From NCBI GenBank assembly GCA_050613775.1, contig JBODTK010000128.1, positions 248,001-312,000 of the forward strand: a stretch of DNA of 64,000 nt, in the 5' to 3' direction. A program made the position numbers and the translations under genes. This DNA comes from Neocallimastix sp. 'constans' (taxonomy: Eukaryota). The first letter of the stretch is position 1. Each line of letters opens with the position of its first letter. The notes below the pieces were generated by a model. The model ran no database searches. It saw only the letters and a program-made list of their open reading frames with translations, and had not been told where the DNA came from. Shown one piece after another: positions 17,752-64,000 of the stretch.

Positions 17752-18387
<636 letters not shown>

Positions 18388-18399
18388 CTCCCCCTCAAA

Positions 18400-23688: not shown

Positions 23689-23859
23689 TTAATTGATTTT
23701 TAATTTAATAATTAATATTATTATATATTTGGGTTTAAGAAGATTATTTTGTGTTTTTATTATGTAATTTTATTAATATTTTATTTAATTAATATTTTAT
23801 TTTAATAAAGATATTTTATATTATTTTATCAATATTATATGAGAATGTTAAGAGTACAG

Positions 23860-23874
23860 ATGAGACTCTTAATC
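23860..23874 (-). promoter_or_regulatory. Copia primer-binding site complementary to the anticodon arm of tRNA-Lys(CUU)
   Basis: The plus strand reads ATGAGACTCTTAATC directly against the 5' LTR and matches the recalled eukaryotic tRNA-Lys-CTT anticodon stem-loop. There is no TGG-type PBS. Confidence 0.75.
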
Positions 23875-24214
23875 TATTAAAGTAATTTATTTAGTTATTA
23901 ATAATTTATACATTTATTTATTTATTATAAAATTACTTATTGACGAAAGTCGCAAATTTTTGTCTATAAAATAAACAATTATTTTTATATAAACTATATT
24001 ATTATTTCACGTGAATAAACAAGAATAAAGAGATTATTTACATGCGCATGATAAATTTAATGATTTACATTTAATTATGTATTAACATAAATAATGTTAA
24101 TTTACATTTTAAGTTTAGTTTTTTACATAAATATTTATGATTTATATTTTCTATTATTTAATTATAAACCTAAATTATTAAGTTTATTTATTTATATTAT
24201 TTAATACTTTAACA
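23875..24214 (-). repeat. Copia 5' LTR
   Basis: Matches 18048-18387. Confidence 0.95.
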
Positions 24215-43639: not shown

Positions 43640-44940
43640 AATATAATTAGTTATCGATGTAATTGTAATACCCCAAGATTATGATTTATCACGCAGCTGA
43701 AATATATTTAACAATTTATATTAACGATAATCATTAAAATTACTGAAAAAGAAAATATATAAAAGTTTATGCTAACTCCAAATGGAATTATAATAGAAAG
43801 TGATGTAAAACTAAATATATAAGAGTTATTAATACAAATTGAGATGGTATAATATTACTTTTCAAAAAAAAAAAAAAGTTTTCTATCATATAAATGTTAT
43901 ATATAAACCATATATTATATAAGATATCTTAGATACATTCAATATGTTAAATTAAAAGTTAATTTAAAATAGAAATAACAAATAATAATTTAGTAATATC
44001 AAGTGGACATTATTAAATAGGACAATTTTATTCATTATAGAATAACTAAGTTTAAGTAGGAATGTTAGAATATGTATATATAATTCTATAATATATGAAT
44101 TTGTGATTAATAAAAAGTAATGTAATATGAAAGGGTTAGTGTTATAATTAACACTAACCCTATTATAGTAATCTATAGAAACTTCGTCAAAGGCCATTGG
44201 ATACTGAATAAGGTATTATAAGTAAAAATTTCGAAATTATTAATATTGTTTAAAGAGTTAAAGAAAATTTAAGTATTGAAAAGTAGATTTGTTGACTTTA
44301 CATTAGGAATAGAAAGAGAAGATAATGGGGTGTGGGGCATTTCGCCAAATTGCATTTCGCCAGATTGCATTTAGCCAGTTTTTTTGAAAGCATGTGGCGT
44401 ATTAAAAAATGTGGCATTTCGCCAAATTGCAATTCGCCAAGTTGCATTTCGCCAAATTTGAAAATTATTAAATAAATAAATAAATCAATAAATAAAATTA
44501 ATTATTATTAATATCGCATAAAAACAATTTTAAAAAAAATATATTTTGAATTAATATTTATTTATTTATTCATTTATTTATATCAATACTCTACTTGTCG
44601 AAATGCAACCTGGCGAAAAGCAACTTGGGGAAATGCAATATTTTAATACTACGCCACTTTGCGAAATGCAACCTGGAGAAAAGCAATTTGGGGAAATGCA
44701 ACTCTCCCAAGATAATGACATTTATATTTCACAAGAAGCCGACTGGAGAAAAATCTATTCAAATATTAAAATACTTAACAAAACATTTTAAAATAAAATA
44801 TGACTGGAAAGGTAAAATAAATGTACTAGTTAGTGTTAATTACTATTTTAATGATGAAAATATATTAATTAAAAATATTCAAAAATATTCAATTGAAATA
44901 TATTAAAACAATATCACAATAAAAAATATAATTTGAGGGA
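43640..44940 (+). pseudogene. Highly decayed copia pol remnant (RT/RNase H pieces plus PPT), interrupted by a MITE
   Basis: VDFTLGIEREDN|DIYISQ reads across the MITE. IQILKYLTKHFKIKYDWKG and KNIQLKYIKT resemble the intact copia (ILQYLKNTKNYKIKYDGTG, NLIKLKYIST). PPT-like TTTGAGGGA at 44932-44940. The 5' boundary is approximate. Confidence 0.6.
44328..44708. mobile_element. Non-autonomous Mutator/Foldback-type MITE (381 bp)
   Basis: 9-bp TSD AAGATAATG (44319-44327, 44709-44717). Imperfect TIRs GGG..GCATTTCGCCAAATTGC are built from about 15-bp TTGCATTTCGCCA repeats. Confidence 0.85.
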
Positions 44941-45879: not shown

Positions 45880-47360
45880 CTATAATAAAATATAATAATT
45901 AAAAGACAAACGTTATTATAACTAAATTTTTTTTTTTTTAGAAAAATAAATGAAATAAAATTAAAATATATAAGATTCCTATATATATAAAATAATTATA
46001 TTTTTTTTATTTTATTTTATTTTATATTTATTATATTTATTTCACCTATATACTTTATTATTTAATATTTTTATATATGTTAAACTTATATATATTTATA
46101 TGGCTTATATATTATCTTAATTTTTAAAAAAATAATATTTAGTTTAATAATAAATTTAAAATTAATCTATAAAAAATCTATTTTTTATTTATTTAACCAC
46201 GCCAACACCAACCATATTCAGTAAGACAGTATTTACCAACTATATCATAAACACGAGCATCACGATTAACATAAAATGCTACTATGAACAGTAGAGAAAT
46301 TAGATAATCAATGTATTCGAAATACAGCAAGGGAAGATTAGGTCATTTTTATCAAAGTAATTTTTTTTTTACCTAAATACCTAGACTTACCGTAATATAA
46401 AAAAAAAAAAAAAAAAAAAATATTCCATACATAGAACCTCTCCATGAAAATCCACCTCTTGTGTTATTTGGTGTGTAATAACATCCATTTTTGGTACTTA
46501 TATGTCTAGTAATCCATTTATATTTATCTGGATTTTTATATTGTGTATCTCTAAGATATGCTCCAACAGGGATTTCTCTATAATTAACTACTGAATTATG
46601 GAGGAAACAGTCAGTTAATAATTTTTTAAACATTTTAATTTATAAAATGAATACTTTAATATAATATTATATATATTTATTTTTTTTTTTTAATTATTCA
46701 ATTATGTAATTACGTATGTAATTCTGTTGATAATATAAACAAGGTATTAATAACAATTAATAATATTTAAAATAAAATAAAAAAAAATATAATAATTATT
46801 TTATATATGTAGTAATTATATATATATTTTTTTTATTTAATTTTCTAAAAAAAGATTTTTTAGTCATAATAAACATTGGTCTTAATTATTTTTATTATCA
46901 TTTAAAAATTTATTTATTCATTTATAATTTATTTATTCATTTATTTATTTATTACATTATAATACGCCATGTTTTCCGAAATGCACTACAACAAAAGGGG
47001 GTGTCATTTCGAAAATTTTTATTACATAAATTTGTATTTTGTTGTAGTGCATTTCGGAAAACAGGGCGTATTATAATGTAATGAATAAATAAATGAATAA
47101 ATAAATTATAAATGAATAAATAAATTTTTAAATAATAATAAAAATAATTAAGACAAACGTTTATTATGAAAAAAATCTTTGAGAATTGTAATTTTATTTA
47201 TTTAATTAATTAATTATTATTCATTAAATTTTTAATAAAAATAAGTGGCTTAAAATTAAAATTATTTAAGCCATACAACAAAATACAAATTTATGTAATA
47301 AAAATTTTCGAAATGCACACTCACCACAACAAAATACAAATTTATGTAATAAAAATTTCC
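45880..47360. mobile_element. Older MULE-like element with long diverged inverted repeats enclosing a coding-like fragment
   Basis: About 45880-46020 is the diverged reverse complement of about 46765-46900. The right TIR continues to 46996 and resumes at 47335-47360 after a nested MITE. Confidence 0.55.
46997..47325. mobile_element. MULE-type MITE (329 bp) nested in the TIR of a same-family element
   Basis: 9-bp TSD ACAACAAAA (46988-46996, 47326-47334). About 50-bp TIRs GG..CATTTCGAAAATTTTTATTACATAAATTTGTATTTTGTTGTA. Confidence 0.85.
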
Positions 47361-47634
47361 AGTTTTAACATGTAAAAATAATTTTAAAGAAATATTTAGA
47401 AATATGTTTGTAATAATTAATAATGTAAAGTTTCTAGAATATAGATTTTAATTGATGAAAATGAATCTTATCAAAAAAGAATAAAATAATTTATATAATA
47501 AGAATTTCTAAATTCATTTCGGTTGAATTACGAACCGAAAGAATCTTTAACTTTCTATAATTTTATACAGAAAGAATATTCAAGAAGATATTATTAATAA
47601 TTAATAAAATAATTAATAAAATAATTATTTATGC

Positions 47635-47711
47635 AAAATGGGTTGAAGTGTGAGTCGAATCCATGAAGTATTGATCATGGTCAATGTAACTAACCATTGA
47701 ACCAAGGTTCT
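47635..47711 (-). ncRNA. tRNA-like/tRNA-derived Pol III element (pseudo-tRNA or SINE head)
   Basis: Minus strand has A-box-like TGGTTCAATGG, stem ATTGA-CCATGA-TCAAT, B-box-like GGATTCGACTC at tRNA spacing (about 45 nt), then CCA-TTTT. The acceptor and T stems do not pair well. Confidence 0.5.
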
Positions 47712-47725
47712 AATTTTAATAACTG

Positions 47726-48776
47726 TGATAAAGAATGAAGTAATAAATTGATTCTTATTAAAAACCTTTTAATATAGTCAAGGTGATTTTTAAAATATTA
47801 ATAAATTTATGTATTCTTTACATTAATAATTTTACTATATTATTTGATCTGAAAATTTAAGTTTATACATAAAATTTAATTTAAATTTATGTTCATTCCT
47901 TATAAAGGTAAATTAAATTTATGAGAGTTTAGCAATAACATAGTACTAATTACTTTTAGTATTATTTTTCTAAATAAGGAATAATTCCTGTATATAAACA
48001 ACTTAAATAACTTTATCAATATTTCTGTCTTTCGAATTAATAAATAATTGAAATGAAAGAAATAAATAAAATAAAATTTTCTGTATTTAAAATTGTAAAA
48101 GATTTTTCATATATTAATAAATGTATTTTATTTTCTATTATGTCATTCAAATTAATATATAAGATTACATATTAAATTAGTATCAAAATTAAGTTAAAGT
48201 ATTCAATTTTATTGTAATACTGCTTCTCTTTTTTTTTTTGTTTAATTCTTATCTATAATGCATCTTTTATATTATAGATTTATTTTGGATAATTTGAATA
48301 TTAGGAAATAATAAAATTTCTATTTATTACAATAAGGAAATAATCAATAAGATTTAAAAATCTATTGTTTTTCCATCTCTTCAACTACTTCCAGAGGCTT
48401 TGCTACTTTTATATCTTCAAAAAGATATAAATTGACTACCTTGGAACCCCTTTTTAGGGGGGAGAGAGAAAAAAAAAAAAAAAGAAAAAAAAAAAAAAAA
48501 ATAGAAATAATAAAAATAAATAAATAAAAAAAAATAATAAATAAAAATAAATAAAAATAATAATAAAAATAAAATAAAAATAAAATAAATAAATAAAAAT
48601 AATAATAAAAATAAAATAAAAATAAAATAAATAAATAAAAATAATAATAATAATAAAATAAAAATTAAAATAAAAATATAATAAATAAATAAAAATTATT
48701 GTGAAAGAATAAAATTTTTTTTTGTGTTTTAATATTATATAAATTTTTTTTTTTTTGAATTCCTCGAACCATAACA
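47726..48776 (+). repeat. Gypsy-1 5' LTR
   Basis: TGATAAAG...CATAACA, matching 55538-56589. Confidence 0.95.
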
Positions 48777-49673
48777 TAAAGTTTGGTGGAGATATCGGGG
48801 ATTTCAAAATTAAAAACTAATATTAAAACATACACAATAATTTTATTTAATTAAAAAAAAAAAAAAAAAAATTTTTTTTTACAATAATATAGAAATATAA
48901 TATATACATAAATAAATATTAATAATTTAAAGTAGCACCTACGTCCTTACTATATTAGTTGGATAAATAATTTCATACAACAAAGTTGTTATATTTCTGT
49001 TTGTGCAAGAGAAACAGTGTGATATAAAACTTTGAAATATTTATTCCTGTCAAGTACTAATTAGTAAGAATAATAATTTAATTATATTATACATTTATTC
49101 ATTAATATAAGAATACTTTTATACAATTTATAACTTATTGTAATCGGCGGCTGTTGGATGAAAAACTCCTTAGCTTAAGGCTTTGTTACAATTAAGTGTA
49201 TATAGTAATTCGTATTTATATTATCGACTAAATTATATTATAATTGAAATTATAAATTCAAATTTATAAATATATACATATATATAGTATCTATATATTG
49301 ATACCAAGACTGTTGATATATATAGATATAAAAATTAGACGTTTATATTAGAGAATAGGAGAAGGATTGCTTTACACATAGGGAGGTAGTAGAGCATTAT
49401 TGAATAAGGTTTAGTGATACAAGTGATAACAGAATAGAAAAAGTGGTAAGGTCCCGTGTTCGTACAGGCACACACTACTCTGTTATATTCACTATTCTGA
49501 CGGTTCAATAGTGGAGGTCGAACGGCCCTGTAAAGAATCTGCGGATTCGAAAATAATATAAAGCTAATAATATATATATAAGAAATATTTATAAATTTTC
49601 CATATTAATTTTTTTTAATTTAGCAATTAATTTATTCCGTGCTACATATAAGAAATTCTAGTGTACTGAATTC

Positions 49674-49709
<36 letters not shown>

Positions 49710-49795
49710 TTGTTTACTGTTCTTACTCTGTGGTTAAGTGAAATTGAGCCAAAGAAGAAAAACTACTATATTTTTTTTTACTACCTGTTTAATTT

Positions 49796-49999
49796 GGTTG
49801 TCGAGGTGTATCTTGAACCAAATAATTATCATTATAAGTGGTCGAAGTGTCATTCGAGCTTATAACCTTAATATAATTATATCTTCTATTGGTGATCGAA
49901 AGGTATTCGAACCAATAATATAAAATTTCCTTAGGTGGTCGAGTGTTATTCGAACCTAAAAATATATTTCTTGTAGGTGGTCGAAGTGTATTTCGAACC
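49796..49999. repeat. Array of five 23-24 bp imperfect palindromes (consensus GGTGGTCGAAGTGTATTCGAACC) with 17-30 bp unique AT-rich spacers
   Basis: Copies at 49796-49819, 49837-49860, 49891-49913, 49934-49956 and 49976-49999. Confidence 0.85.
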
Positions 50000-50092
50000 T
50001 CATATAAATAACTATAAAGATATAATTTAATAAACAATAATTATAAAATATTTTAATCTTGGATATCAAAATAAAACAAAACAAAACAAAAC

Positions 50093-50127
<35 letters not shown>

Positions 50128-50255
50128 TATTTTTTTTTTTATCTCTGAAGTGTTTGTAAACTTACCTATTTTTTTTTTCTAATCTCTGAAGTGTTTGTAA
50201 ACTTATAAATTCTAATACTATATTATATATATCTATAACATACTCACACACACAA

Positions 50256-50297
<42 letters not shown>

Positions 50298-50358
50298 TAT
50301 TATTATTTTTATTTTGAATATTTTACCTATATTACTGTATAATTTCTACTCAAGAAAT

Positions 50359-51318
50359 ATGGCTTCAGTTACTAATGATACTACTAATGTTCTTTCATTT
50401 AAAGATCTTAAAAAGGAACTAAAATATGTTGATAAATTAAACAAGGACCATTTGGATATAAAATCTTGGGCTTCTGAAATTGAGTTATGGATCCAATTAC
50501 AAAATATCACTGATCCAAAAACTATTTTTGTTGCATGCCTATTAACGTCTACTGGTGAACCAAGACAAATTATCCAAGAATTAGAACTACCTGCTACTAC
50601 AGCAGAAGAAGATGTAGAATTGAATGGTTCCACTGATACTGGTGAGATGTCAGGATCTAGCACCAGTAGCTCTACTAGTTCAAGTAGTTCTAGTAATGAT
50701 AGTGTTAGAACTAACCGTTATCCTTCTTTTGTCGAGATCGTCAACGCTCTTGAAGTATTCTATGGGGCAAAGGAAGATCAGAATACCTTATTAAGGGAAT
50801 TGCGTGCTCTTAAAATTGGTAGAAATGAAAAAGTAAGGGATTTTAATAAAAGATATCGGACATTATATTTAAAATTAGATAAAACTCACAAAAAACAAAT
50901 CAGTATCTTGGACTATGCTGATGCACTTGAGAATAATATTGAGGCCTGGAAAAGAGTAACTTTAATTGATGATATACCACTTTCAAAGGCTTATGAAATT
51001 GCAGAAAAAGTGGATAGACTTGCTGTGAGGTTACATCGTGTACCAAGTCCTAATAGAAATGTTTCCAACAATAATAATAATAATTATAATAAGAGTCGTA
51101 GTTCACCACCAAGAAATACTTATGAAAACAGGGACAATAGAAAAGTTTCTGATGAAAGTGAAAGGGAGAACCTTACACGTGGACCAAGAAACTCTACCGT
51201 CAAAACCTGTTTCTTCTGTAAGGAACCTGGACATTATCAACAACATTGTCCCAAACTACAAGCCATTATAGAAGAAAATAAGAAACAGATTTTTTCCAAA
51301 GGACCTTTAAACCAGTAG
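50359..51318 (+). CDS. Gypsy-1 Gag
   Basis: Capsid-like EKVRDFNKRY, Zn knuckle CFFCKEPGHYQQHC, first ATG at 50359. Confidence 0.9.
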   Translation: MASVTNDTTNVLSFKDLKKELKYVDKLNKDHLDIKSWASEIELWIQLQNITDPKTIFVACLLTSTGEPRQIIQELELPATTAEEDVELNGSTDTGEMSGSSTSSSTSSSSSSNDSVRTNRYPSFVEIVNALEVFYGAKEDQNTLLRELRALKIGRNEKVRDFNKRYRTLYLKLDKTHKKQISILDYADALENNIEAWKRVTLIDDIPLSKAYEIAEKVDRLAVRLHRVPSPNRNVSNNNNNNYNKSRSSPPRNTYENRDNRKVSDESERENLTRGPRNSTVKTCFFCKEPGHYQQHCPKLQAIIEENKKQIFSKGPLNQ

Positions 51319-54300
51319 AAGGGAGAGGAAGCACTCCCATCAAAAAAATAGCTTCATTAAAATATACTTCCAATTCTTCTGATGCAGAAAGTAAAGACTA
51401 CAGAGTGGATTATACTATCAAAAGTCATGATCAGGTAGGAGAATATTTTGTCGGTGCGGCAAAAAGAAAACTTGATGAAAGTGATGTTGAGTTAGATAAT
51501 GGAAAAGGAAGGAAAATTCATAAAAGCCTACGTGATAATCCACGACCTATAAACACTCCTGCATTAAGAAAAAGAAAAGAAAGAGAATTGGAAACTGAAG
51601 AGGTGATACCTCATAAGAAACAGTTGCAAACATCAATAATTATGCAACCAAATATCAATAAAGAAAAGAAAATTGAAAAAGCAATACGTGATAAAGAAAG
51701 ATTTTTGAAATCTAGTACTAATTCTAAAGAATTCGAAACTGCATCATCCAGTCAGTCTAATGTAAACTTAATTACTAATAAAGAGGAAATAACTTCAAAA
51801 GTTGATAATGTAGAAGCTCCAAGGGAAATTAACCAAACTAGAGAAAGAAAAAAAGACAAAAATAATAATAATAATACTAGTAATCCTAATAATAGTAACA
51901 ACGGAACTATTAGAAAAACCCCAGTCGTAAATGATATTAATAATAATAATACTATTAATATTAATAATAATGAAACTATTATCGATAATAATCATTTAAC
52001 GAATAATAAAAATATATTAAATAAATTAATTAATACAGATGGTATTAATAATAATAATAATAATGATAATAATAATAGTATGAAAATACCTCGGGTAAAT
52101 CGAATTATTAAAATGCTTTCTAATTATAAGGAATATGATGTATGGGATGATTTAAGCAATACCAAGTGTAATATTACCTTTGGACAGCTTTGGAATGCTG
52201 CGCCTAAAATAAGGAGTCAAGTTTCCCAAGGTTTAAAACTAGTAAAAGCCACCACTAATGTTGTTGGCGCTATTAATAATGTAGTTGCTACTACAACATT
52301 AGTTAATAATGTTGATCATAACTATAAAAGTAAAAGTACAGAAATAACAGAGGAGGATATTGCAATGGTAGATGCCTCTGTTGATGGTGTATCTGGAAAA
52401 TTACTTATTGATACGTGTAGTAATTTAAATATTATGTCACAAAAATATTATAATTCTCTACCATACCAATATACCGTTGTTGGTCATAGTTGTGGTAGAA
52501 TAATGCTTGCCACTAGAGACGATGAATACTCTGAAGGAATAGTCGTTAGGATACCTGTGAAAATTAATGAGCTTTCATTGTTAATTGATTTCCGAATTGT
52601 AGAAAAAGAGGAACCATTTTATGACATGCTAATTAATTTAAAAACTATAGTTGATAATAGATTATTTATTAATCCCTTAAATAATTGCTTATGTAAATAT
52701 AACATGGATGGTACTATCAGTTCTATTACACCAATAAATAATTCTGCAATTGACGAAAAATATATTTGTAGTGTTAACAAATTACTTGAGGATAATAGTA
52801 AGGAAAAATATGCTGGTGGGGAATTAAAGAAATTAGAAGGATTACCACCTATGGAATATATACATAATACAATATTTATGAATACTCTAAATGAAAAATA
52901 TAGAACTGATATAATACACCTATTAGAGGACAATATAGAAATTGTTGCTACGTCGTCTGAGGAATTAACACCATCATTGCTTTCACCACACAAAATAAAT
53001 CTAAAAGCTGGTACCAAACCTATAAAACAAAGAGCTTATCGGCTAACAAAATTAAAGACAGATATTTTAAAGGAAGAATTAACTAAGTTAATTAATAAAA
53101 AGTTAATTGAGCCTTCAAATTCTGAATGGTCTTCGCCTATTGTTCTAGTACCAAAGCCTAATGGGAAATGGCGTATGTGTGTAGATTATAGGAAGGTTAA
53201 TGATTCTACTATAAAGGATTCTTATTCTATACCATACATTGATGAAATTTTTGATAGTCTCAATGGTGCAACTATCTTCACTACCATTGACTTATACTCT
53301 GGATATCACCAAATTTTAATGGAGGAAGAAAGTATTGGTATAACAACTTTCACCACTAAGTTTGGTAACTACCAATTTAAAGTTATGCCATTTGGTTTAA
53401 CCAACGCTCCTGCAACCTTTCAAAGAGAAATGAATAGAATCCTATTTCCTTTAATAGGAAAGTGTGTTTATAATTTTATCGATGATATACTTATATACTC
53501 TAAAACAGTTGAAGAACACCTCCAACATATTCAACAAGTTTTATCCATACTCAAAGAAAATAGATTAAAACTTAATATTGAAAAGTGTCACTTCATGAAA
53601 ACAGAAGTGAATGTTTTGGGGCATAGATTAACCACTAAAGGCTTAAAACCTCTTGATAGTAAAATCGAGGTTATCAGAGATTGGAAACCCCCTCAGGACA
53701 TCCATGAATTACGTTCATTTTTAGGAGCTGTTGGATACTATAGAAATTTCATCGATAAATATTCACAAATTACTGCGTGTTTGTGTAAATTATTAAGGAA
53801 AGGTGTGAAGTATGTTTGGACTAGTGAACACCAAAAATCGTTTGAAGTACTGAAAGAAAAACTAATAAATGCACCCATATTAAGTTTCCCTCAGTTTGAT
53901 AAAGAATTTATTATACGTACCGATGCTTCTTATGATGGAATAGGAGGTGTGTTATTACAAAAAGATAATGAAACTGGAAAAGAACACCCTATTCACTTTA
54001 TTAGTAGAAGTTTGACCAGAGCAGAAAAGCATTATGGTATAACGGACCTAGAAGGTGCTGCCCTATATTATTGTATAACTAAATTAAAACCGTATATAGA
54101 TGGAAATCCAATACCAACTATTGTATATACGGACCATAAACCGTTACTAGGGTTGTTCAAAAATAAGGAACCACATAATGCAAGGCAAACTAGATGGTGT
54201 TTGACAGCTAGTATGCTTGGTGTAGACATTAGATATGAAACCGGTAAAAAGAATGTGCTTGCTGATGCCCTATCCCGAATGAAAAATAATAAAGAAAATG

Positions 54301-55514
54301 TAGTTTTAGCTACGAAAATAATTAACCATGATATTACGAATGATGAAAATGAAGCCTTATTATCCAAAGTAATACATGATTTTATCAATGAAAAATTCAC
54401 CACTATTGATGGTATTGACTACTTTATTGATGGTAACAATTATAGAAAATTAGTAACCGATCTTAATGAAAGAATAAAATTAATATTAGAGGCTCATAAT
54501 ATTGGACACGATGGTTATTATAAGACTTATCAACGTTTACGTAAGAGTTATTATTGGAACGACATGGTGAATGATGTTAAACGTGTTGTCAGTGAGTGTG
54601 AAAAATGTCAATTAAATCGACCACAACCTTATCCAGAGCCTACAGAAAATCTACCTACTAAAGTGGAAGGACCTTTTGTACATCTTGGTTTGGACATTAT
54701 CGGTCCACTGGTTAAAACTAGAAGTAATAATCAATATATAATAGTAGCTGTTGATTATTTCACTAAGTGGGTAGAAGCAGAACCCACTGAAAATATCACT
54801 TCTAAAGACGTAATTAAGTTCCTTATTAACGTATTTTCTCGTCATGGAGTTCCCCAAGTAATTACCACCGATAATGGTGCCCAATTTACATCAGATATGA
54901 CTAAAATATTTTTAGATCTATATGATGTATATATAAAATTTGTTACAACATATCATCCCGAATCTAATGGACTTACGGAAAATCGTAATAAAGAAATTGG
55001 TAAACTCCTTAGATTGCTTGGGACGAAAAATAAAGATTGGGATGAGGTATTACCCTCTGCTCTCTGGGCTTTAAGAACTGTTAAAAATAGTACCACTAAC
55101 CATTCTAGTTTTGAATTAGTTTATGGTCGTGAAGACCAACAACCTTTTGATATAGCTGCAAGACCGACTAAAGGTATAAATAAATCTTCTGATGAAATTC
55201 TATTGGAAAAGTTTATATCTCATTATAGATGGACCATAGAAGCATCAGAAAATGTGAAAAATGCAAATAAATATTGGGCTGTTAGACGAGAAGAAAAACA
55301 AAGTATGAATCAGGCTAAGGAAATCAAGGAGGGAGATTTAGTCCTAGTTAGAAACTTTAGTAGAACTAAACTAGAACCTTATTTTAATGGACCTTTAAAA
55401 GTAATCAAGAAAAAGTTTAATACAGTTACGTTAGCTGATCCAAATTCAGGAATATTATTAAATCGGAATGTACACCTCAAAAATATAGTAAAATATAACT
55501 CAGCTACAATATAG
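51306..55514 (+). CDS. Gypsy-1 Pol (PR-RT-RNase H-IN), expressed by -1 frameshift
   Basis: The frame is open from the slippery site TTTAAAC. Motifs LIDTCS, WRMCVDYRKVN, MPFGLTNAPATFQ, FIDD, RTDAS, YTDHKP, ITTDNG and GPLKV; no chromodomain. Confidence 0.93.
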   Translation, partial: FKPVEGRGSTPIKKIASLKYTSNSSDAESKDYRVDYTIKSHDQVGEYFVGAAKRKLDESDVELDNGKGRKIHKSLRDNPRPINTPALRKRKERELETEEVIPHKKQLQTSIIMQPNINKEKKIEKAIRDKERFLKSSTNSKEFETASSSQSNVNLITNKEEITSKVDNVEAPREINQTRERKKDKNNNNNTSNPNNSNNGTIRKTPVVNDINNNNTININNNETIIDNNHLTNNKNILNKLINTDGINNNNNNDNNNSMKIPRVNRIIKMLSNYKEYDVWDDLSNTKCNITFGQLWNAAPKIRSQVSQGLKLVKATTNVVGAINNVVATTTLVNNVDHNYKSKSTEITEEDIAMVDASVDGVSGKLLIDTCSNLNIMSQKYYNSLPYQYTVVGHSCGRIMLATRDDEYSEGIVVRIPVKINELSLLIDFRIVEKEEPFYDMLINLKTIVDNRLFINPLNNCLCKYNMDGTISSITPINNSAIDEKYICSVNKLLEDNSKEKYAGGELKKLEGLPPMEYIHNTIFMNTLNEKYRTDIIHLLEDNIEIVATSSEELTPSLLSPHKINLKAGTKPIKQRAYRLTKLKTDILKEELTKLINKKLIEPSNSEWSSPIVLVPKPNGKWRMCVDYRKVNDSTIKDSYSIPYIDEIFDSLNGATIFTTIDLYSGYHQILMEEESIGITTFTTKFGNYQFKVMPFGLTNAPATFQREMNRILFPLIGKCVYNFIDDILIYSKTVEEHLQHIQQVLSILKENRLKLNIEKCHFMKTEVNVLGHRLTTKGLKPLDSKIEVIRDWKPPQDIHELRSFLGAVGYYRNFIDKYSQITACLCKLLRKGVKYVWTSEHQKSFEVLKEKLINAPILSFPQFDKEFIIRTDASYDGIGGVLLQKDNETGKEHPIHFISRSLTRAEKHYGITDLEGAALYYCITKLKPYIDGNPIPTIVYTDHKPLLGLFKNKEPHNARQTRWCLTASMLGVDIRYETGKKNVLADALSRMKNNKENVVLATKIINHDITNDENEALLSKVIHDFINEKFTTIDGIDYFIDGNNYRKLVTDLNERIKLILEAHNIGHDGYYKTYQRLRKSYYWNDMVNDVKRVVSECEKCQLNRPQPYPEPTENLPTKVEGPFVHLGLDIIGPLVKTRSNNQYIIVAVDYFTKWVEAEPTENITSKDVIKFLINVFSRHGVPQVITTDNGAQFTSDMTKIFLDLYDVYIKFVTTYHPESNGLTENRNKEIGKLLRLLGTKNKDWDEVLPSALWALRTVKNSTTNHSSFELVYGREDQQPFDIAARPTKGINKSSDEILLEKFISHYRWTIEASENVKNANKYWAVRREEKQSMNQAKEIKEGDLVLVRNFSRTKLEPYFNGPLKVIKKKFNTVTLADPNSGILLNRNVHLKNIVKYNSATI

Positions 55515-55537
55515 CTTGAGTCTTAGCGGGGGCATCG

Positions 55538-56589
55538 TGATAAAGAATGAAGTAATAAATTGATTCTTATTAAAAACCTTTTAATATAGTCAAGGTGATT
55601 TTTAAAATATTAATAAATTTATGTATTCTTTACATTAATAATTTTACTATATTATTTGATCTGAAAATTTAAGTTTATACATAAAATTTAATTTAAATTT
55701 ATGTTCATTCCTTATAAAGGTAAATTAAATTTATGAGAGTTTAGCAATAACATAGTACTAATTACTTTTAGTATTATTTTTCTAAATAAGGAATAATTCC
55801 TGTATATAAACAACTTAAATAACTTTATCAATATTTCTGTCTTTCGAATTAATAAATAATTGAAATGAAAGAAATAAATAAAATAAAATTTTCTGTATTT
55901 AAAATTGTAAAAGATTTTTCATATATTAATAAATGTATTTTATTTTCTATTATGTCATTCAAATTAATATATAAGATTACATATTAAATTAGTATCAAAA
56001 TTAAGTTAAAGTATTCAATTTTATTGTAATACTGCTTCTCTTTTTTTTTTTGTTTAATTCTTATCTATAATGCATCTTTTATATTATAGATTTATTTTGG
56101 ATAATTTGAATATTAGGAAATAATAAAATTTCTATTTATTACAATAAGGAAATAATCAATAAGATTTAAAAATCTATTGTTTTTCCATCTCTTCAACTAC
56201 TTCCAGAGGCTTTGCTACTTTTATATCTTCAAAAAGATATAAATTGACTACCTTGGAACCCCTTTTTAGGGGGGAGAGAGAAAAAAAAAAAAAAAGAAAA
56301 AAAAAAAAAAAAAATAGAAATAATAAAAATAAATAAATAAAAAAAAATAATAAATAAAAATAAATAAAAATAATAATAAAAATAAAATAAAAATAAAATA
56401 AATAAATAAAAATAATAATAAAAATAAAATAAAAATAAAATAAATAAATAAAAATAATAATAATAATAAAATAAAAATTAAAATAAAAATATAATAAATA
56501 AATAAAAATTATTGTGAAAGAATAAAATTTTTTTTTGTGTTTTAATATTATATAAATTTTTTTTTTTTTGAATTCCTCGAACCATAACA
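55538..56589 (+). repeat. Gypsy-1 3' LTR
   Basis: Matches 47726-48776. Confidence 0.95.
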
Positions 56590-56593
56590 ACTG

Positions 56594-57152
56594 TGGTACG
56601 TTACTCACTAAAATAGAATAAATTATTAAAAATATAAGAAAATAAATAATTCTTTAGTTATTTTATTATAATAGGTATAAGGTTTAATTAGTATATAAAA
56701 TTATAATATTAATAAAAATAATTTTAATTAATAGATAACCAATAAGAATTAAGATAAATTATAGTATAAAAATAAGTGAAAGATAAAATATTAACAAAGG
56801 AGGAACTTTATAATTTAATATCTTTAAAGAATATAATAGTTAGAATAGGAATTATAAAATATTTATTCGGGTGAATAAATATTTAGGATATTTTGGTTAA
56901 TATTATTATTAAAATATAAATTTAAAGATATAATAAAGTTATAATAAATTTAAATGTACTTATTTAAAGAACAAAACTTATAAATAAAATAAAGACTTAA
57001 AAGTAACACATTATTATTTATTAAAATTTATTATTAATTTTGTGTTATAATTTTTTTATTTATTTCTTTTATTAGAATATATTATTTTATAGTTTTACAA
57101 CTTGCTTTCCCCAAATCATATAAAAGGTACAATATATAAAAATAACGTACCA
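56594..57152 (+). repeat. Gypsy-2 5' LTR
   Basis: Matches 63393-63951. Confidence 0.95.
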
Positions 57153-57307
57153 AAATTGGTGGAGAATCCGGGGGGAAGCAAGATTTAATAAAGAAGTATG
57201 AAAATAATAAGGAAATAATAATTACAAATAAATTATTTAATAATAAACCATAATTTTATAATTTTTTTTATATAATCATTACCATTAAAAATTACAAAAA
57301 TCTTAAA

Positions 57308-58633
57308 ATGTTTGATGCAGCTAAATTGCAAAGAATCTTACCATTGTTAATCAATTATGGTAAAGATGTGGAAAGTTGGATAACAGATTTTTCCAAAACG
57401 ATGGAACTTTATGATATAATGGAACCTCGACGCATTTTTACATGGGCTAAAGAGGCCGTGGAAGAAGATATTCAAGGCGCATTAAATTCATTAGTAAAAG
57501 GAAGAGGTGACTCAATCAGATATCCTACATTAAAGGAGATTCAAGATACAATAGAAGAACATTTACATATAACTGAGAATGATAAATGTTCTGTTCTTAA
57601 ATCTTTAAAAATTAATGAAGACGAGTCGTTAAAAAAGTTTAATTACAAATATAAAAAATTATATAATAAACTCAGTTTGGAATATAGAAGACTTATTTCG
57701 GTCAAAGATTATACAAATGCTATTAGTTCTCGAGTATTTCCCTGTTCAAGAGTTATGATAGCGGAATGTGAAACAATAAATGAAGCATTTAAAATAGCTG
57801 AAGTAGCTGAAGAAGCTGAAAAAGAAATATCCAATGCAAATCAAAGGAGCAAAATTAATAATAATATGGGAACAAACATCATGTTTACTCAAAACCATAC
57901 TAATAATAATGTATTATTGAATCACCCTTTTTACGAAAATCTTCACTCAAGACAACTACCAATGAATCAAGATGGAAATAATACCTTTATTGGAGAAAAC
58001 AATTGGAATTTTAGAGCTAGCTCATGGAACAATAATAACTCTAGGAATCCAAATTATTCGAATCATGCGGTAAATTTAAGAAATCATATGAATTATTATT
58101 CAAATAACAGTAATAATTACGTTAATAGAATGCCAAGAAGGAATTCAATAAATGGATATAATAATAAAATCAATTATGATTGGTATTCGAACAATAACAA
58201 AATCAACAATCATTATATGAATTTTAATATGATGAATAATACGAACAAAATGAGTAATAATCAATTACTCAATGAAGGAGAAGATAACCAAAATAATATT
58301 GATTTAAAAAATATAAATAATAATATGATGACTAATAATAATAAAGAATATAACAATCAAATGACTAATGGTAACACAATTAACACTAATAATATGACTC
58401 AATCTTTTAGCTACCAAAATAGGAAAAAATATCATAGTAGAACAGAAAACAACAATGTCATTAATACCTTAGTAACCAAAAATAATAATAAACTTAATGA
58501 TGACAACAATTATCATGTGAATTGTTATCGTTGTACAATGGAGGGACATAGAGCTTCAGAATGTCCGTACACATTTAAACAATTGGCTGAAATGGAAGAA
58601 CAGGGTTTGATTAATAAACCTTTAAACCAATAA
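57308..58633 (+). CDS. Gypsy-2 Gag (Asn-rich central region)
   Basis: ESLKKFNYKY, Zn knuckle CYRCTMEGHRASEC; ends in PLNQ* as does Gypsy-1 Gag. Confidence 0.9.
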   Translation: MFDAAKLQRILPLLINYGKDVESWITDFSKTMELYDIMEPRRIFTWAKEAVEEDIQGALNSLVKGRGDSIRYPTLKEIQDTIEEHLHITENDKCSVLKSLKINEDESLKKFNYKYKKLYNKLSLEYRRLISVKDYTNAISSRVFPCSRVMIAECETINEAFKIAEVAEEAEKEISNANQRSKINNNMGTNIMFTQNHTNNNVLLNHPFYENLHSRQLPMNQDGNNTFIGENNWNFRASSWNNNNSRNPNYSNHAVNLRNHMNYYSNNSNNYVNRMPRRNSINGYNNKINYDWYSNNNKINNHYMNFNMMNNTNKMSNNQLLNEGEDNQNNIDLKNINNNMMTNNNKEYNNQMTNGNTINTNNMTQSFSYQNRKKYHSRTENNNVINTLVTKNNNKLNDDNNYHVNCYRCTMEGHRASECPYTFKQLAEMEEQGLINKPLNQ

Positions 58634-61600
58634 ATGGGAGAAGGATAACTTCCATTAACCAAACCAAAAAAATAATGTTCAAAAATAATGACTCATGTAA
58701 CAATAAAAATAATATAATGACAATGGTAGATGATCAAACAATACTACCTATAATTAATAATAGTGTTAATGAAAAACAAAATTGTAATTACCTTAATATA
58801 AACAATAATAGTAATACTACACAAAATATATTAAATAGACCAATTGAAATTGTAGCAGCAGCTACTCGAAATTCAAGAAATAATATTAGCAAATATAATG
58901 AAAAGCCATATAATAGAAAGGAAGTGAGATTTAATTTAAAAGACAATCCAAAACCAATACAAACGGCAGCTATGAGTCATAATAATAGTAATAAGAATAA
59001 TAATAGTATTAATAATTATAATATTAAAAATAAAAATAATACCAATTATAGTAATACAAATGTTAATAATAATTATAACAATATTAATAATCATAATAAT
59101 AATAGGAATAATGATCATGAAAATAAAAATATGAATAATAATAATAATAAAATTAATTATAATATAGATAATAATAATGACAATAATAACGACAATAATA
59201 ATGAAGAAAATAATATTTATAATACCTTTAAAGAAAATATTGACATAAATAATGATGATTATATTACTAATAATATAAACACTAGTCAAACAGTTGAATC
59301 AGGAAGTATAGAATCTAATGAAGATGTAATCATGATAGAAGAATCTGAAAATGATGAAAACAATGTTGATGTTGATGAAAGTAATAATATTAAAAATCAT
59401 AATAAGTCCTTACCTGATAATGAAGAGAATTCCATTAGAGCAAATAATACAAATAAGAATGAAACTCCTAATAAAAAAAATTGTAATACCCAAAAACTAG
59501 AGTATCTTGATCCTTCTTTTATCACAGAAAAAAATATTAGAAAAGTTAAAAACAAAAATAAAGAGGAGAGAATTAAAGATATAAAAAATAAAATGAAAGA
59601 AATGAATACCAATACCAAGACAAGTGAAACTCCAATGGAACAACCTGAAAAACACATCAAACTTATGGAGAAATTTGGTGATTATTATATTCAAGATTTG
59701 ATAAAAGAAATTGCATCAACTGATGTAATAACAAAATTGGTCTACCTTTTAGATCTCTTCCCAAAATTTCGAACAGAATTCTTAAAAGCTTTAAAATTAA
59801 CACCTAAACAAACAATAACAAATGTAATGACAGTTATTACAAAACATAAAATAATTAAAGTTAATGGAAAAGTAGAGAATAATGATTGTGAAATATTTTT
59901 AGATACTTGCGCCAGTGTCAATGTTATTACACGTTCCGCTTTGAATAAATTAAAAATCAACAAATCTTCTATTGGTAGAATCTCTGAAACAATATTTCAA
60001 GCGTACTCAAATTCCTCAATAGATAGTGATATCTATGATTTACAAGTCTCTATTGGTAGCAGAACTTTTAATGAATATTTTAGGGTAATCGAAAAAGATG
60101 ATATTTTTGATATCTTGATTGGTGTTGATTCTCTAAAGAATAATAGATTTGATATTAACTTAGTAGATGATACTTTATATTATATTGATGAAAATAATAA
60201 TTACATTAAACTAGCAGATCTATTTTATGACATTAATCTTAATAATACTTACAAGGATGATGAAGAAATAGAAAAACATCAAACTTCCAAATCTGAACCT
60301 TTTTTATTATCAATTACAGTTACCAATGATAACGAAATTACGAATACTAATGAATTACCTAACACGAAAGAACATTTAATTAATGAAATAATATCTTCTG
60401 TTCCTGATAATTTTAAAAATGAAATTAGTAAAATATTTTCAAAATTTAAAAATGTAATAGCAATCAAAACAGATGACTTAGGAAAATCAAAATTGTTACC
60501 TCATAAAATTGATTTAATTCCTCAGTCTACACCGATAAAATTAAAAGCTTACCGGTTATCTAAAGCACAAACAAAGGCTCTTAAGAAAATCTTGATTAAG
60601 CTAATAGAAAACAAATTAATAGAACCATCCTATTCTTCATGGGCATTTCCAGTAGTACTAGTTCCGAAGAAAAACGGCGACTGGAGAATGTGTGTCGACT
60701 TTAGGGCTTTAAACAATATAACTATTAAGGATTCATATGCTTTACCCTTAATTGATGACATATTAATGTTTATTGGAAAGAACGCAAAAATACTCTCTAC
60801 TATTGATCTTTTTTCTGGTTATCATCAGGTTCCAATGAATCCTGATGATAAAGATAAAACAACATTCACTACCATGTTTGGAAACTACAAATTCTGTGTA
60901 ATGCCGTTCGGTTTATGTAACGCACCGGCTACTTTTCAACGTGAAATGAACCGGATTTTTTTTGATTTGATTGGTGTATGTTTGTTCGTTTACATTGATG
61001 ATTTAGTTATATTTTCAGATTCTATTGAATCACACATTAAACATCTCACGATGGTATTTCAAATTTTAGCTGATAATGGTTTAAAGTTAAATTTAGAGAA
61101 ATGCTCATTTTTTAAAACAAAGGTAACGCTACTCGGACACACTTTATCGACACAAGGTATTTCACCCATTCCAGATAAGGTAAAAGTTATTGTGAATTAG
61201 CTCCTTTCCTACTATTGTTTATACAGACCATAAACCCCTGGTTAGTATATTTGCTAATAGAGAACCGTCAAATAATCGCCACCTTAAATGGGTTACAGAA
61301 CTATCAATATTAAATGTTAAAGTTCAATTTCAAGAGGGGAAGAGGAACGTTATTGCCGATGCTTTATCCAGATTACCTACAAAAGAAATAAATGAAAATA
61401 AAGAAATATTAAATGCATTAGTAAATAATAACGTTTCTTCCAATAATAATAACGACAGTATAAATAAATTTATGAATGAATTTATAAATAAAAGAATTAT
61501 AAATATTGATGGTATTGAATACTATAAGCAAGGAGAAAATATAAGGAAAATAATTAAGAATAAAACAAAACAGTTTGAATTAATCAAAGATGCACATCAA

Positions 61601-62626
61601 ATTGGCCATGAAGGTATTTATAAAACATACAATAGGTTAAAACGTGATTATTACTGGAAATCAATGAAGAATGATGTGCACAATTTTATTAAAAGCTGTC
61701 ATCGCTGTCAAATATACAGACCTCAATCGCTTAACAAAAATGTGGAAAGTATCGCTACACCTCCTGGTTATCCATTCTCTAGAGTTGGGTTAGATATCAT
61801 TGGACCACTGCCACCTACAAGAAATAATAATAAATATATAATCGTATTAGTAGATTATCTAACAAAGTGGGTAGAAGCGGAACCATTGAAAACGGTTGAA
61901 GCAGAAGATGTTATAAAATTTTTAAAATCGGTATTTTCTCGTCATGGAATACCAGAAATACTTATTACAGATAATGGTCCACAATTCATCGCGGATAAAA
62001 CCAAAGCTTTTCTTGACCTTCATGATATATATGTACATTATATAACAACTTACCATCCAGCATCAAATGGAGAAGTAGAGAATCGAAATAAAGAGATAAG
62101 TAAATACCTACGATTACTTGGAAAATCTACCGATACTTGGGATGAAACTCTATACAGCGCTTTATGGGCTTTAAGAACCTGTAAGAATGAGGTTACAAAA
62201 TATAGTAGCTTTGAATTATTATATGGAAGAAGAGACTTACAACCCTTTGAATTAACTTTAAATATAGAAAGAAGAAATGAAATGGAAAGTGAAGAAGAAT
62301 ATTGGTTAAGAAAATTTATTACTCACGATAAATGGATCAAAGAAGCCATTAATAATATAGAAACAGCTAACAAATTATGGGAAGATCGTAGAAAACAAAT
62401 TAAAAGATTGCGGGCTTGCTACAAACCTGGAGATTTAGTTTTAGTAAAAGTATTTAATAGACGGAAGTTGGATCCTTTTTTTACTGGACCGTTAAAAATT
62501 GTTAAACAAGAATTGAATACAGTCACAGTATGCGATCCAATTACAGGAGAAATAGCCAATCGTAATATTCATCTGAAAAACGTTATTCCTTACTTCACTG
62601 AAATAAATTTGGAAGAAGAAGAATAA
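58621..62626 (+). pseudogene. Gypsy-2 Pol, disrupted by a stop and an internal deletion at about 61200
   Basis: FLDTCAS and RT YIDD, then TAG at 61198-61200 where Gypsy-1 has Trp. The frame then jumps to PTIVYTDHKP, so the connection and N-terminal RNase H are missing. The integrase reading frame is intact to 62626. Confidence 0.9.
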
Positions 62627-62847
62627 ATCAGATAGTTATAACGATAGTTATAAATAAACATTATAATAATATATATAATATAATTATATATATATAAAAA
62701 AAAAAAACGCGTTTGAATTTCAACTTACAAAAATAAACATTTAGCTATTGTTGAAAAGTTTAATAAATTAATTCACATTTCTAATCCAGTAATTTCTTTT
62801 ATTAGATATAAATAATAAAATATAATAAAAATATAATAATAGATTAT

Positions 62848-63034
62848 AATAGTAAAATATAATAGTAAAATATAATAGTAAAAAAAATAATAGTAAAATA
62901 TAATAGTTAAATATAATAGTAAAATATAATAGTAAAATAGAATAGTAAAATATAATAGTAAAATAGAATAGTAAAATAGAATAGTAAAATAGAATAGTAA
63001 AATAGAATAGTAAAATAGAATAGTAAAATATAAT
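62848..63034. repeat. 13-bp minisatellite AATAGTAAAATA(T/G) in the Gypsy-2 3' UTR
   Basis: About 14 tandem units visible. Confidence 0.85.
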
Positions 63035-63392
63035 ATTAAAATATACAAAGATATATAGACAGAATATATATAAATTAAATTTTAAATTAGTAAACAAGTA
63101 TATAATTTTATAAAATTTTATAAACAATATAACATAATTTTACAATTTACTTACCTAAAAAAAAATGTATATATATATATATGCATATACAATATAGTAT
63201 AAATTACATATATGTAATGTATACATGTACATTATTGTATGAAATTGTATATATATAATATAAAAAAAAAAAAAAAAAAAAAAATTTAAAGAATATAATA
63301 ACATTTTTTTTTAATTTTTATAAAAATTTTTATTCATTATATCCATAAACCACGACTTCAAGGGACGAAGTCTAGACAAAGTGGGGGCGTCT

Positions 63393-63951
63393 TGGTACGT
63401 TACTCACTAAAATAGAATAAATTATTAAAAATATAAGAAAATAAATAATTCTTTAGTTATTTTATTATAATAGGTATAAGGTTTAATTAGTATATAAAAT
63501 TATAATATTAATAAAAATAATTTTAATTAATAGATAACCAATAAGAATTAAGATAAATTATAGTATAAAAATAAGTGAAAGATAAAATATTAACAAAGGA
63601 GGAACTTTATAATTTAATATCTTTAAAGAATATAATAGTTAGAATAGGAATTATAAAATATTTATTCGGGTGAATAAATATTTAGGATATTTTGGTTAAT
63701 ATTATTATTAAAATATAAATTTAAAGATATAATAAAGTTATAATAAATTTAAATGTACTTATTTAAAGAACAAAACTTATAAATAAAATAAAGACTTAAA
63801 AGTAACACATTATTATTTATTAAAATTTATTATTAATTTTGTGTTATAATTTTTTTATTTATTTCTTTTATTAGAATATATTATTTTATAGTTTTACAAC
63901 TTGCTTTCCCCAAATCATATAAAAGGTACAATATATAAAAATAACGTACCA
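63393..63951 (+). repeat. Gypsy-2 3' LTR
   Basis: Matches 56594-57152. Confidence 0.95.
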
Positions 63952-64000
63952 ACTGAGGATTGTAATAATTTAATTAAAAAATTATAATTAAATTATTAAT

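What the first reader, a model, noticed from the sequence alone, without database searches (positions are those of the whole stretch)
47635..63955. Two different gypsy elements stacked at one nucleotide beside a tRNA-like promoter: candidate site-specific, Pol III-targeted integration system
Seen in sequence: ACTG(47722-25)-Gypsy-1-ACTG(56590-93)-Gypsy-2-ACTG(63952-55). The two elements have unrelated LTRs and the same orientation, and share one 4-bp TSD copy, so both integrated at the identical site. That site is 11-14 bp upstream of the predicted position 1 of a minus-strand tRNA-like A-box/B-box element. Established: yeast Ty3 and Dictyostelium DGLT-A are gypsy elements that integrate just upstream of Pol III genes, which for Ty3 occurs via TFIIIB. 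Inference: this chromodomain-less family is anchored by the Pol III complex on the left, so each new copy lands at the left ACTG and pushes older ones away. This fits the intact element being proximal and the damaged one distal. I do not know of such targeting being described in zoosporic fungi.
Basis: partly seen in the sequence, partly recalled or inferred. Interest (0 to 1): 0.9.

Follow-up and report, generated by a model that had tools for sequence, protein, structure and literature searches.

The report
Retrotransposons stacked at Pol III repeat
Two different jumping genes of a probable gut fungus sit one behind the other on the same four bases, inside a short many-copy repeat that carries tRNA-type promoter boxes but is not a tRNA gene, so they likely home in on RNA polymerase III start sites, as yeast Ty3 does.

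Summary
The stack is real: ACTG-Gypsy-1-ACTG-Gypsy-2-ACTG, unrelated LTRs, same orientation. The neighbour is not a tRNA gene: ARAGORN, Rfam and a tRNA covariance model do not call it, and 9 of 21 cloverleaf pairs form. Public contigs show it is one copy of a repeat of roughly 160 copies. Nearly all copies keep the A box and a canonical B box, and the repeat continues past the insertion. It looks like a Helenus-type solo LTR or a SINE. The duplicated bases cover its predicted Pol III start (-14 to -11). Three more LTR|4 bp|LTR junctions (ATTG, ATTA, TTGT) appear in other runs, so stacking recurs and is not tied to ACTG. Best reading (0.68): a chromodomain-less gut-fungal gypsy clade integrates at Pol III start sites, here in another mobile element's promoter. 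Not shown: the flanks of other copies, and the insertion order (both LTR pairs have 0 substitutions). This copy's B box is mutated. The scan noted a similar stack at a tRNA-Leu gene in another genome (e1-8067551, unchecked). New variant of a known kind.

The parts
47489..47493 (.). ATTTA, candidate left 5-bp TSD of the host repeat (ATTTA also stands at 47627-31, before a TG at 47632, an alternative left end)
   Evidence: chance of a fixed 5-mer match 1.4%; diverged copies start aligning at 47494-98
47494..47725 (-). Main part of a ~244-bp high-copy repeat with Pol III promoter boxes (Helenus-like solo LTR or SINE); the integration target
   Evidence: depth about 160x single copy in X1 and X12 (rough); contigs X1#5 and X12#11 link the hairpin part to the tRNA-like part
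47517..47540 (-). Hairpin in the repeat's 3' part
   Evidence: fold; paired change 47523 T>C with 47534 A>G in other copies
47639..47711 (-). tRNA-derived module, cloverleaf decayed (9 of 21 pairs)
   Evidence: (6.2 bits)
47652..47660 (-). B box; this copy has A at G53, most copies have G
   Evidence: 47660 T>C in 7186 of 7278 depth (X1) and 15635 of 15999 (X12)
47694..47704 (-). A box, nearly invariant in the family
47722..47725 (.). TSD copy 1 (ACTG); on the minus strand CAGT, whose C and A lie at -14 and -13, the predicted Pol III start
   Evidence: yeast start motif from PMC6673722
47726..48776 (+). Gypsy-1 5' LTR
48784..48800 (+). Gypsy-1 PBS, 7 nt after the LTR (tRNA-Ala-like; identity recalled, not tested)
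49788..50007 (+). Five leader hairpins at ~42-bp period with compensatory pairs; likely packaging signals
50359..51318 (+). Gypsy-1 gag; predicted -1 slippery site TTTAAAC at 51306-12
51282..55514 (+). Gypsy-1 pol (PR-RT-RH-IN), open frame, no chromodomain
55538..56589 (+). Gypsy-1 3' LTR (PPT at about 55525-32)
56590..56593 (.). TSD copy 2 (ACTG), shared by both elements
56594..57152 (+). Gypsy-2 5' LTR (10-bp terminal inverted repeat)
57157..57174 (+). Gypsy-2 PBS, same type as Gypsy-1
57308..58633 (+). Gypsy-2 gag; TTTAAAC at 58621-27
58618..62626 (+). Gypsy-2 pol, broken at about 61196-61200 by one deletion of about 140 codons (RT end and most of RNase H)
   Evidence: against P0121 (99% identical on both sides)
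63393..63951 (+). Gypsy-2 3' LTR
63952..63955 (.). TSD copy 3 (ACTG)
63956..63967 (-). Displaced 5' end of the host repeat
   Evidence: resembles the letters that follow ACTG in uninterrupted copies (loose ends after 47725 in X12 and X14)
63968..63972 (.). ATTTA, candidate right TSD of the host repeat (extendable to a 9-bp duplication, 47485-93 / 63964-72)

Best explanation
Two related but distinct gypsy retrotransposons integrated one after the other at the same four bases inside a short high-copy repeat with tRNA-type A and B boxes, likely because their integration complex is positioned by the RNA polymerase III initiation machinery at the predicted transcription start. Shown: the three TSD copies, two LTR types, recent insertion, the repeat nature of the target, its conserved boxes, and further 4-bp-spaced stacks. 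Inferred: TFIIIC binds the boxes inside the repeat and places TFIIIB upstream regardless of sequence; the intasome docks there and cuts 4 bp apart across -14..-11. The first insertion leaves boxes and start site intact, so the next cDNA would cut the same promoter-proximal ACTG and push the earlier element away (Gypsy-2 first, Gypsy-1 second). The clade lacks Ty3's C-terminal chromodomain, so the tether is more likely DGLT-A-like (RNase H or IN N-terminus to TFIIIC) or new; this is untested. The target is probably a Helenus-like solo LTR (about 0.6) or a SINE (about 0.3), so one mobile element's Pol III promoter would serve as landing pad for another.
For: Stack and TSDs. Target family keeps A box and canonical B box while the cloverleaf decayed. 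The TSD covers a CA at -14/-13; the yeast Pol III start motif is ttCAan with the start A near -13, and Ty3 inserts there (PMC6673722). LTR edge is 14 bp from position 1; DGLT-A has 18 of 20 copies at 13-18 bp (PMC6101501). Ty3 also uses a tRNA relic gene, ZOD1 (PMC5911963). No tRNA-like box lies in the 45 bp visible on the right. Other stacks: LTR2|TTGT|LTR2 at single-copy depth in X3, LTR1|ATTG|LTR2 and LTR1|ATTA|LTR2 in X12 and X14. TTGT is not a transition variant of ACTG.
Against: One locus with known flanks; I could not read the flanks of the other ~60-100 LTR copies per family. This copy's B box has A at G53, and with 0 substitutions in 1610 bp of LTR pairs the change almost certainly predates the insertions, so the promoter was imperfect when hit. 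ATTG and ATTA can be decayed ACTG, so two of the three extra stacks may lie in the same repeat family and do not separate position from sequence. The TTGT joint is one contig of a metagenome. The TSD overlaps the predicted start, 3-4 bp closer to the gene than Ty3's. No transcript seen: RNA run X24 (19% read, not shown to be the same species) has no reads on 47633-47790. The window's exact junction was not seen in X1, X3 or X12.
Confidence: 0.68

Rival explanations
1. Sequence- or structure-specific targeting of the repeat: the integrases recognise the conserved DNA left of ACTG in this ~160-copy family, without Pol III factors. Re-insertion recurs because the left half of the site survives.
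For: The target sequence is shared by many copies up to and past the ACTG; ATTG and ATTA could be decayed ACTG; the hit copy has a mutated B box.
Against: TTGT spacer in X3; two integrases only about 50% identical use the same bases; the site coincides with the predicted Pol III start; gypsy integrases usually have weak sequence preference (own knowledge).
Confidence: 0.17
2. Self-targeting: a first insertion lands anywhere, and later elements insert flush against an existing LTR end, re-using its TSD; the Pol III repeat is incidental.
For: LTR|4 bp|LTR junctions recur; double insertion with a TSD in the junction is documented for many TEs (10.1101/158386).
Against: It needs the first hit to fall on the predicted start of a Pol III repeat by chance (about 1e-5); LTR1 and LTR2 ends share little sequence.
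Confidence: 0.07
3. Looser targeting: the clade prefers open or protein-bound sites in repeat-rich intergenic DNA, and this repeat offers a hot, bendable spot by some factor other than the Pol III machinery.
For: The site lies in a region with a MITE and other relics; no protein contact was tested.
Against: Base-precise re-use and the -14..-11 position fit a fixed ruler better than a region preference.
Confidence: 0.05
4. Assembly artefact joining two separate insertions.
For: The ACTG junction at 56590-93 was not found in X1, X3 or X12 and only weakly in X14 (8.6 of 59.8 depth keeps C at 56591); no long reads were available.
Against: Three matching TSD copies (about 2e-6 by chance); the two outer flanks are the two halves of one repeat copy; like junctions occur in other runs; the runs differ from the window at fixed LTR2 positions, so they are other strains.
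Confidence: 0.03

Closest known systems
DGLT-A of Dictyostelium discoideum (PMC5006619, PMC6101501; passages read)
   Same: Ty3/gypsy element without chromodomain or IN C-terminal extension; inserts about 15 bp upstream of tRNA coding regions; offset PBS after the LTR.
   Different: DGLT-A has one ORF, these have gag and pol with a predicted -1 shift; host lineage; target here is a mobile Pol III repeat, not a tRNA gene; Tfc4 binding untested; relatedness to DGLT-A not tested (sequence not at hand).
Ty3 of Saccharomyces cerevisiae (PMC5911963, PMC6673722, 10.1101/2021.07.27.453949; passages read)
   Same: Insertion at the Pol III start; can use a tRNA relic (ZOD1).
   Different: Ty3 has a 5-bp TSD, +1 frameshift and a C-terminal chromodomain that binds Brf1. 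Here the TSD is 4 bp, and the IN alignment to Ty3 ends at 1438 of 1547 with only 11 residues left in the query.
Tj1 (S. japonicus), Tyl3/Tyl6/Ylt1 (Yarrowia), Tca8 (Candida) (PMC4600332, PMC5911963 Table 1; passages read)
   Same: Fungal gypsy elements just upstream of Pol III genes; Tj1 with fixed orientation.
   Different: All ascomycete; Tj1 self-primes and points the same way as the gene, whereas both elements here point away from the promoter boxes.
Helenus / TRIMp3 (Kojima 2024, PMC10886601; parts 1-4 of 6 and supplement passages read), for the target repeat
   Same: tRNA-derived A/B boxes conserved without a working cloverleaf; TG start; candidate 5-bp TSD; hundreds of copies; A box 36 nt from the TG, as in short Helenus LTRs (about 31-40 nt by my count).
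   Different: No two-LTR copy, PBS or PPT seen; about 145 bp with a hairpin follow the tRNA-like part, whereas the fungal Helenus LTRs I saw end shortly after it; not reported from Neocallimastigomycota in that paper (0 occurrences in the main text); a SINE is not excluded.
Double insertion with shared TSD (McGurk and Barbash, 10.1101/158386; passages read)
   Same: Tandem junction keeps one copy of the target site.
   Different: That paper ascribes LTR-element tandems to LTR recombination with shared LTRs; here two unrelated LTRs abut across a TSD.

Membership tests
Ty3/gypsy (Metaviridae-type) LTR retrotransposon | gag, then PR-RT-RH-IN, between LTRs with PBS, PPT and TSD | tested here: met
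Chromovirus / Ty3-type integrase | Chromodomain or C-terminal extension after the IN CTD | tested here: not met
   no Pfam chromodomain; 0 of 96 clade integrases that reach the C-terminus extend more than 21 aa beyond Gypsy-1's end
Pol III-targeted gypsy elements (Ty3, Tj1, DGLT-A mode) | Insertion 10-20 bp upstream of an A/B-box unit, at the start site | tested here: met
   two events at this locus, 14 bp from inferred position 1
Pol III-targeted gypsy elements (Ty3, Tj1, DGLT-A mode) | Most genomic copies lie at Pol III genes | tested here: inconclusive
   no genome; scans gave no usable flanks; contig lays show few loose ends
Pol III-targeted gypsy elements (Ty3, Tj1, DGLT-A mode) | Independence of target sequence | tested here: inconclusive
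   spacers ACTG, ATTG, ATTA, TTGT; only TTGT is clearly unrelated
Pol III-targeted gypsy elements (Ty3, Tj1, DGLT-A mode) | Contact of element proteins with TFIIIB or TFIIIC; need for intact A/B boxes | not testable with these tools
   no host factor sequence at hand; needs experiment
tRNA gene (the neighbour) | Cloverleaf and covariance-model score | tested here: not met
   own model from 79 phage/prokaryote tRNAs gives 6.2 bits, below the 10 best background hits of the window; 9 of 21 pairs
Helenus / TRIMp3 (the neighbour) | tRNA-derived A/B boxes conserved in a multicopy element | tested here: met
Helenus / TRIMp3 (the neighbour) | TG..CA ends with 5-bp TSD | tested here: inconclusive
   TG start seen in the X14 loose-end consensus (5 contigs, agreement 0.81); window copy reads TA at both proposed ends; ATTTA on both sides, chance 1.4% at fixed ends; left end ambiguous (47494 or 47632)
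Helenus / TRIMp3 (the neighbour) | Two LTRs with PBS and PPT between them | not testable with these tools
   only one copy is readable in full and it has no internal region
tRNA-derived SINE (the neighbour) | tRNA head at the 5' end, 3' stem-loop and tail, variable TSD | tested here: inconclusive
   3' hairpin with a compensatory pair and a possible 9-bp duplication (chance 6.7% with free ends); but conserved sequence runs about 28 nt upstream of position 1 and no clear tail

The most novel reading that the evidence does not exclude
A large gypsy clade of anaerobic gut fungi (109 RT rows in one branch) evolved Pol III start-site targeting on its own, with an integrase lacking Ty3's targeting chromodomain, and uses the promoters of a ~160-copy tRNA-derived mobile repeat as a self-multiplying set of landing pads; different families queue at the same base. 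The repeat would spread safe harbours for its own parasites.
Probability: 0.4. Interest if true: 0.75.

Novelty: new variant of a known kind. Interest (0 to 1): 0.58.

Why it matters
Pol III-start targeting by gypsy elements is listed for ascomycete yeasts and dictyostelids (PMC5911963 Table 1). A case in zoosporic gut fungi with a short integrase would add a further lineage and a test of which protein surface does the tethering. The target being a mobile Pol III repeat, not a tRNA gene, makes a direct test of 'promoter occupancy, not gene identity'. An intact, recently inserted, site-directed element (Gypsy-1) could also serve as an integration tool in fungi that lack genetic tools. If the family proves untargeted, what remains is an ordinary double insertion in a new Helenus-like repeat.

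Tried and rejected
Whole genome: none held. LTR2-terminus motif in metagenome contigs: 4 hits, none similar to the window, no tRNA; in viral contigs 0; A-box and LTR1 motifs in viral contigs 0. Integrase scans: 1 distant viral locus; 19 loci in prokaryote genomes, one at 61% (L162) without flanks; its MAG holds no further LTR copy or repeat. ARAGORN at lowered thresholds calls up to 182 spurious genes and is uninformative. A tRNA HMM ranks the A box 2nd of 4 hits at E 7.4. Idea that the 'tRNA-like' stretch is a relic of Gypsy-1's leader hairpin array: the motifs resemble each other (rank 2 among non-leader tiles, score 18.4 against 18.0 next), but the leader model does not pick the flank at E<=10 and the flank proved to be an independent high-copy family; rejected, resemblance left unexplained. 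RNA run X24 gave no reads on the boxes; mRNA library, 19% read, so no evidence either way. Age order by LTR divergence: no signal. 2-LTR circle as source of the TTGT joint: letters do not match the bases beside either LTR end and depth is single-copy. No complex or structure prediction was run: no host TFIIIB/TFIIIC sequence was available. Navaratna et al. 2024 (LTR elements of anaerobic fungi, cited in PMC13728883) is not held and may bear on novelty. Earlier-findings look-ups by place and sequence returned nothing.
Full report
Host. The window is 19% GC with intron-broken eukaryotic genes. Its DNA is held by feces metagenomes and isolate runs (20 of 24 listed runs hold part of it). The elements' RT falls in a branch with three 'Orpsp1' proteins. 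I infer an anaerobic gut fungus (Neocallimastigomycota); no whole genome is held.

The observation. ACTG stands at 47722-25, 56590-93 and 63952-55. Gypsy-1 has LTRs at 47726-48776 and 55538-56589 (0 substitutions, 1 indel); Gypsy-2 at 56594-57152 and 63393-63951 (identical). The LTR types are unrelated. Both carry gag and PR-RT-RH-IN, the same PBS type and a TTTAAAC at the gag-pol overlap, a predicted -1 shift. With ACTG at 0.0013 per base the triple is not chance. Gypsy-2's pol is 99% identical to an intact relative, P0121, on both sides of one deletion of about 140 codons. That is no sign of age, so the sequence does not order the two insertions.

The clade. In a quick RT tree (137 rows: 135 of 141 fetched proteins with at least 185 aligned residues, plus the two window rows; the careful search did not finish) both elements lie in one branch of 109 rows with SH-aLRT 99, apart from four of the five chromodomain-bearing hits, which group with plant elements; the fifth lies further out. 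Of 108 integrases at least 40% identical to Gypsy-1's, 96 reach its C-terminus and none extends more than 21 residues beyond it. Against Ty3 (PDB 7Q5B) the alignment ends at 1438 of 1547 with 11 query residues left, so the chromodomain by which Ty3 binds Brf1 (10.1101/2021.07.27.453949, passages) is absent. Ty3 and DGLT-A were not in the tree.

The neighbour is not a tRNA gene. ARAGORN finds 0 genes in the window; Rfam has no tRNA match at E<=10 in 3001 or 171 bases. A covariance model from 79 phage or prokaryote tRNAs (79 of 104 candidate references, from 247 genes) gives it 6.2 bits, below the 10 best background hits of the window; the model is prokaryotic, which lowers scores somewhat. In the A-box register 9 of 21 pairs form: acceptor 1 of 7, D 1 of 4, anticodon 5 of 5, T 2 of 5.

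It is a copy of a high-copy Pol III-type repeat. Laying contigs of three DNA runs on 47490-47790 gave depth 3789 (X1) and 7980 (X12) at 47647, against single-copy contigs near 24 and 51: about 160 and 157 copies, with LTR1 at about 80-100 and LTR2 at about 63-68. The tool warns that summed depth is no copy number, so these are rough, but two runs agree. Nearly all laid depth differs from the window at 47647, 47660 and 47674. The change at 47660 turns the window's A at tRNA position 53 into the canonical G of the B box (7186 of 7278 in X1, 15635 of 15999 in X12, 837 of 924 in X14); no change is listed in the A box. A hairpin at 47517-40 shows a paired change (47523 with 47534) in X1. Diverged copies align from 47494-98 and up to 47718-25. 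Uninterrupted copies continue after ACTG with letters resembling the window's right flank 63956-67 and ending, on the minus strand, in a TG start (X14: 5 contigs, agreement 0.81; X12: 2 contigs, 10 letters only). ATTTA flanks the unit on both sides (47489-93, 63968-72; chance 1.4% at fixed ends, but 77% with free ends; the 9-bp extension 6.7%). So the gypsy pair sits inside a ~244-bp element, 12 bp from its 5' end. Conserved boxes, decayed cloverleaf, TG end and 5-bp duplication fit Helenus/TRIMp3 (PMC10886601: main-text parts 1-4 of 6 and 8 supplement passages read). The long 3' part with a hairpin also fits a SINE. An alternative left end at 47632 (TG, also preceded by ATTTA) would give a 106-bp LTR; contigs that link both parts favour the longer unit.

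Geometry. With T8 at 47704 the TSD reads CAGT on the transcribed strand, C at -14 and A at -13. In yeast the preferred start is an A near -13 in a ttCAan motif, and Ty3's TSD abuts it (PMC6673722, passages). [quoted passage not shown] Ty3 also inserts at the tRNA relic ZOD1 (PMC5911963, passages). Here the LTR edge is 14 bp from position 1.

Stacking recurs. Laying four runs on 56505-57260 showed a joint from LTR2's last base to its first with TTGT between (X3, depth 31), and LTR1-to-LTR2 junctions reading ATTG and ATTA (X12: 2 contigs, 107.7 of 107.7 depth with T at 56591; X14: 51.2 of 59.8). The window's own ACTG junction is not covered in X1 or X3 and not seen in X12. The runs differ from the window at fixed LTR2 positions, so they are other strains. 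ATTG and ATTA could be decayed ACTG in the same repeat family; TTGT cannot. Most rows were not shown (548 loose ends, 168), so the flanks of other copies stay unread.

Mechanism. Most likely (0.68) the Pol III complex on the internal boxes positions the intasome; insertion leaves boxes and start intact, so the site is re-used and older elements move outward. Against it: one locus with flanks; the hit copy's B box was almost certainly mutated before the insertions (0 substitutions in the LTR pairs against 3 in about 94 bp of repeat); the TSD lies 3-4 bp closer than Ty3's; no transcript or protein contact shown. The main rival (0.17) is recognition of the repeat's sequence. LTR-end self-targeting, loose hot spots and misassembly are less likely. 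Double insertion with a shared TSD is known in general (10.1101/158386, passages); plant LTR tandems share LTRs instead (PMC11899658, passages).

Novelty. Ten literature searches (listings read) returned no paper on Pol III-targeted gypsy elements in zoosporic fungi, or on gypsy elements targeting a Helenus or SINE promoter. The library lacks most subscription papers, among them Navaratna et al. 2024 on LTR elements of these fungi (not seen). PMC4600332, PMC6883316 and PMC13728883 were seen as passages only. An earlier, unchecked note of this scan (e1-8067551) describes a like stack 16 bp upstream of a tRNA-Leu gene in another AT-rich fungal genome; it is a lead, not support. Verdict: observation confirmed, interpretation partly supported and redirected; new variant of a known kind; interest 0.58.

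Noticed in passing
window 49788-50007: Five hairpins in the Gypsy-1 leader at ~42-bp period with a 2-nt 5' bulge; 47 of 48 cells pair and 3 pairs show changes on both sides (five related copies, structure taken from them). Likely packaging signals. Their reverse strand resembles the B box and 3' part of the target repeat; unexplained.
   Followed up: partly
window 49502-49550: A second GGTTCAAT...GGATTCGA pair in the Gypsy-1 leader, + strand, with the same 41-nt spacing as the A and B boxes of the target repeat.
   Followed up: no
window 57157-57192 in runs X1, X3, X12: Variants of the Gypsy-2 family: a different PBS (tRNA-Lys-like, recalled) joined to the same internal sequence, and a different LTR end before the same PBS; possible primer switch or recombinant.
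   Followed up: no
window 17911-24214: Copia element, minus strand, open 1762-codon frame, LTRs only 91% alike, inserted in a (TTA)n microsatellite, with no TGG-type PBS visible after the 5' LTR.
   Followed up: partly
window 46851-47180 and 47257-47360: Palindromic MITE-like element and a nearby relic of the same sequence.
   Followed up: no
window 44320-44720: Cluster of GC-richer GCATTTCGCC / GAAATGC repeats in inverted arrangement, probably another foldback element.
   Followed up: no
L162 1-4405: A relative (61% over the integrase) on a contig of a prokaryote MAG, probably fungal contamination; its LTR is followed by the same PBS type.
   Followed up: partly
window 51306-51312 and 58621-58627: Both elements share a TTTAAAC slippery heptamer just before the gag stop, predicting a -1 shift, unlike Ty3's +1.
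   Followed up: no
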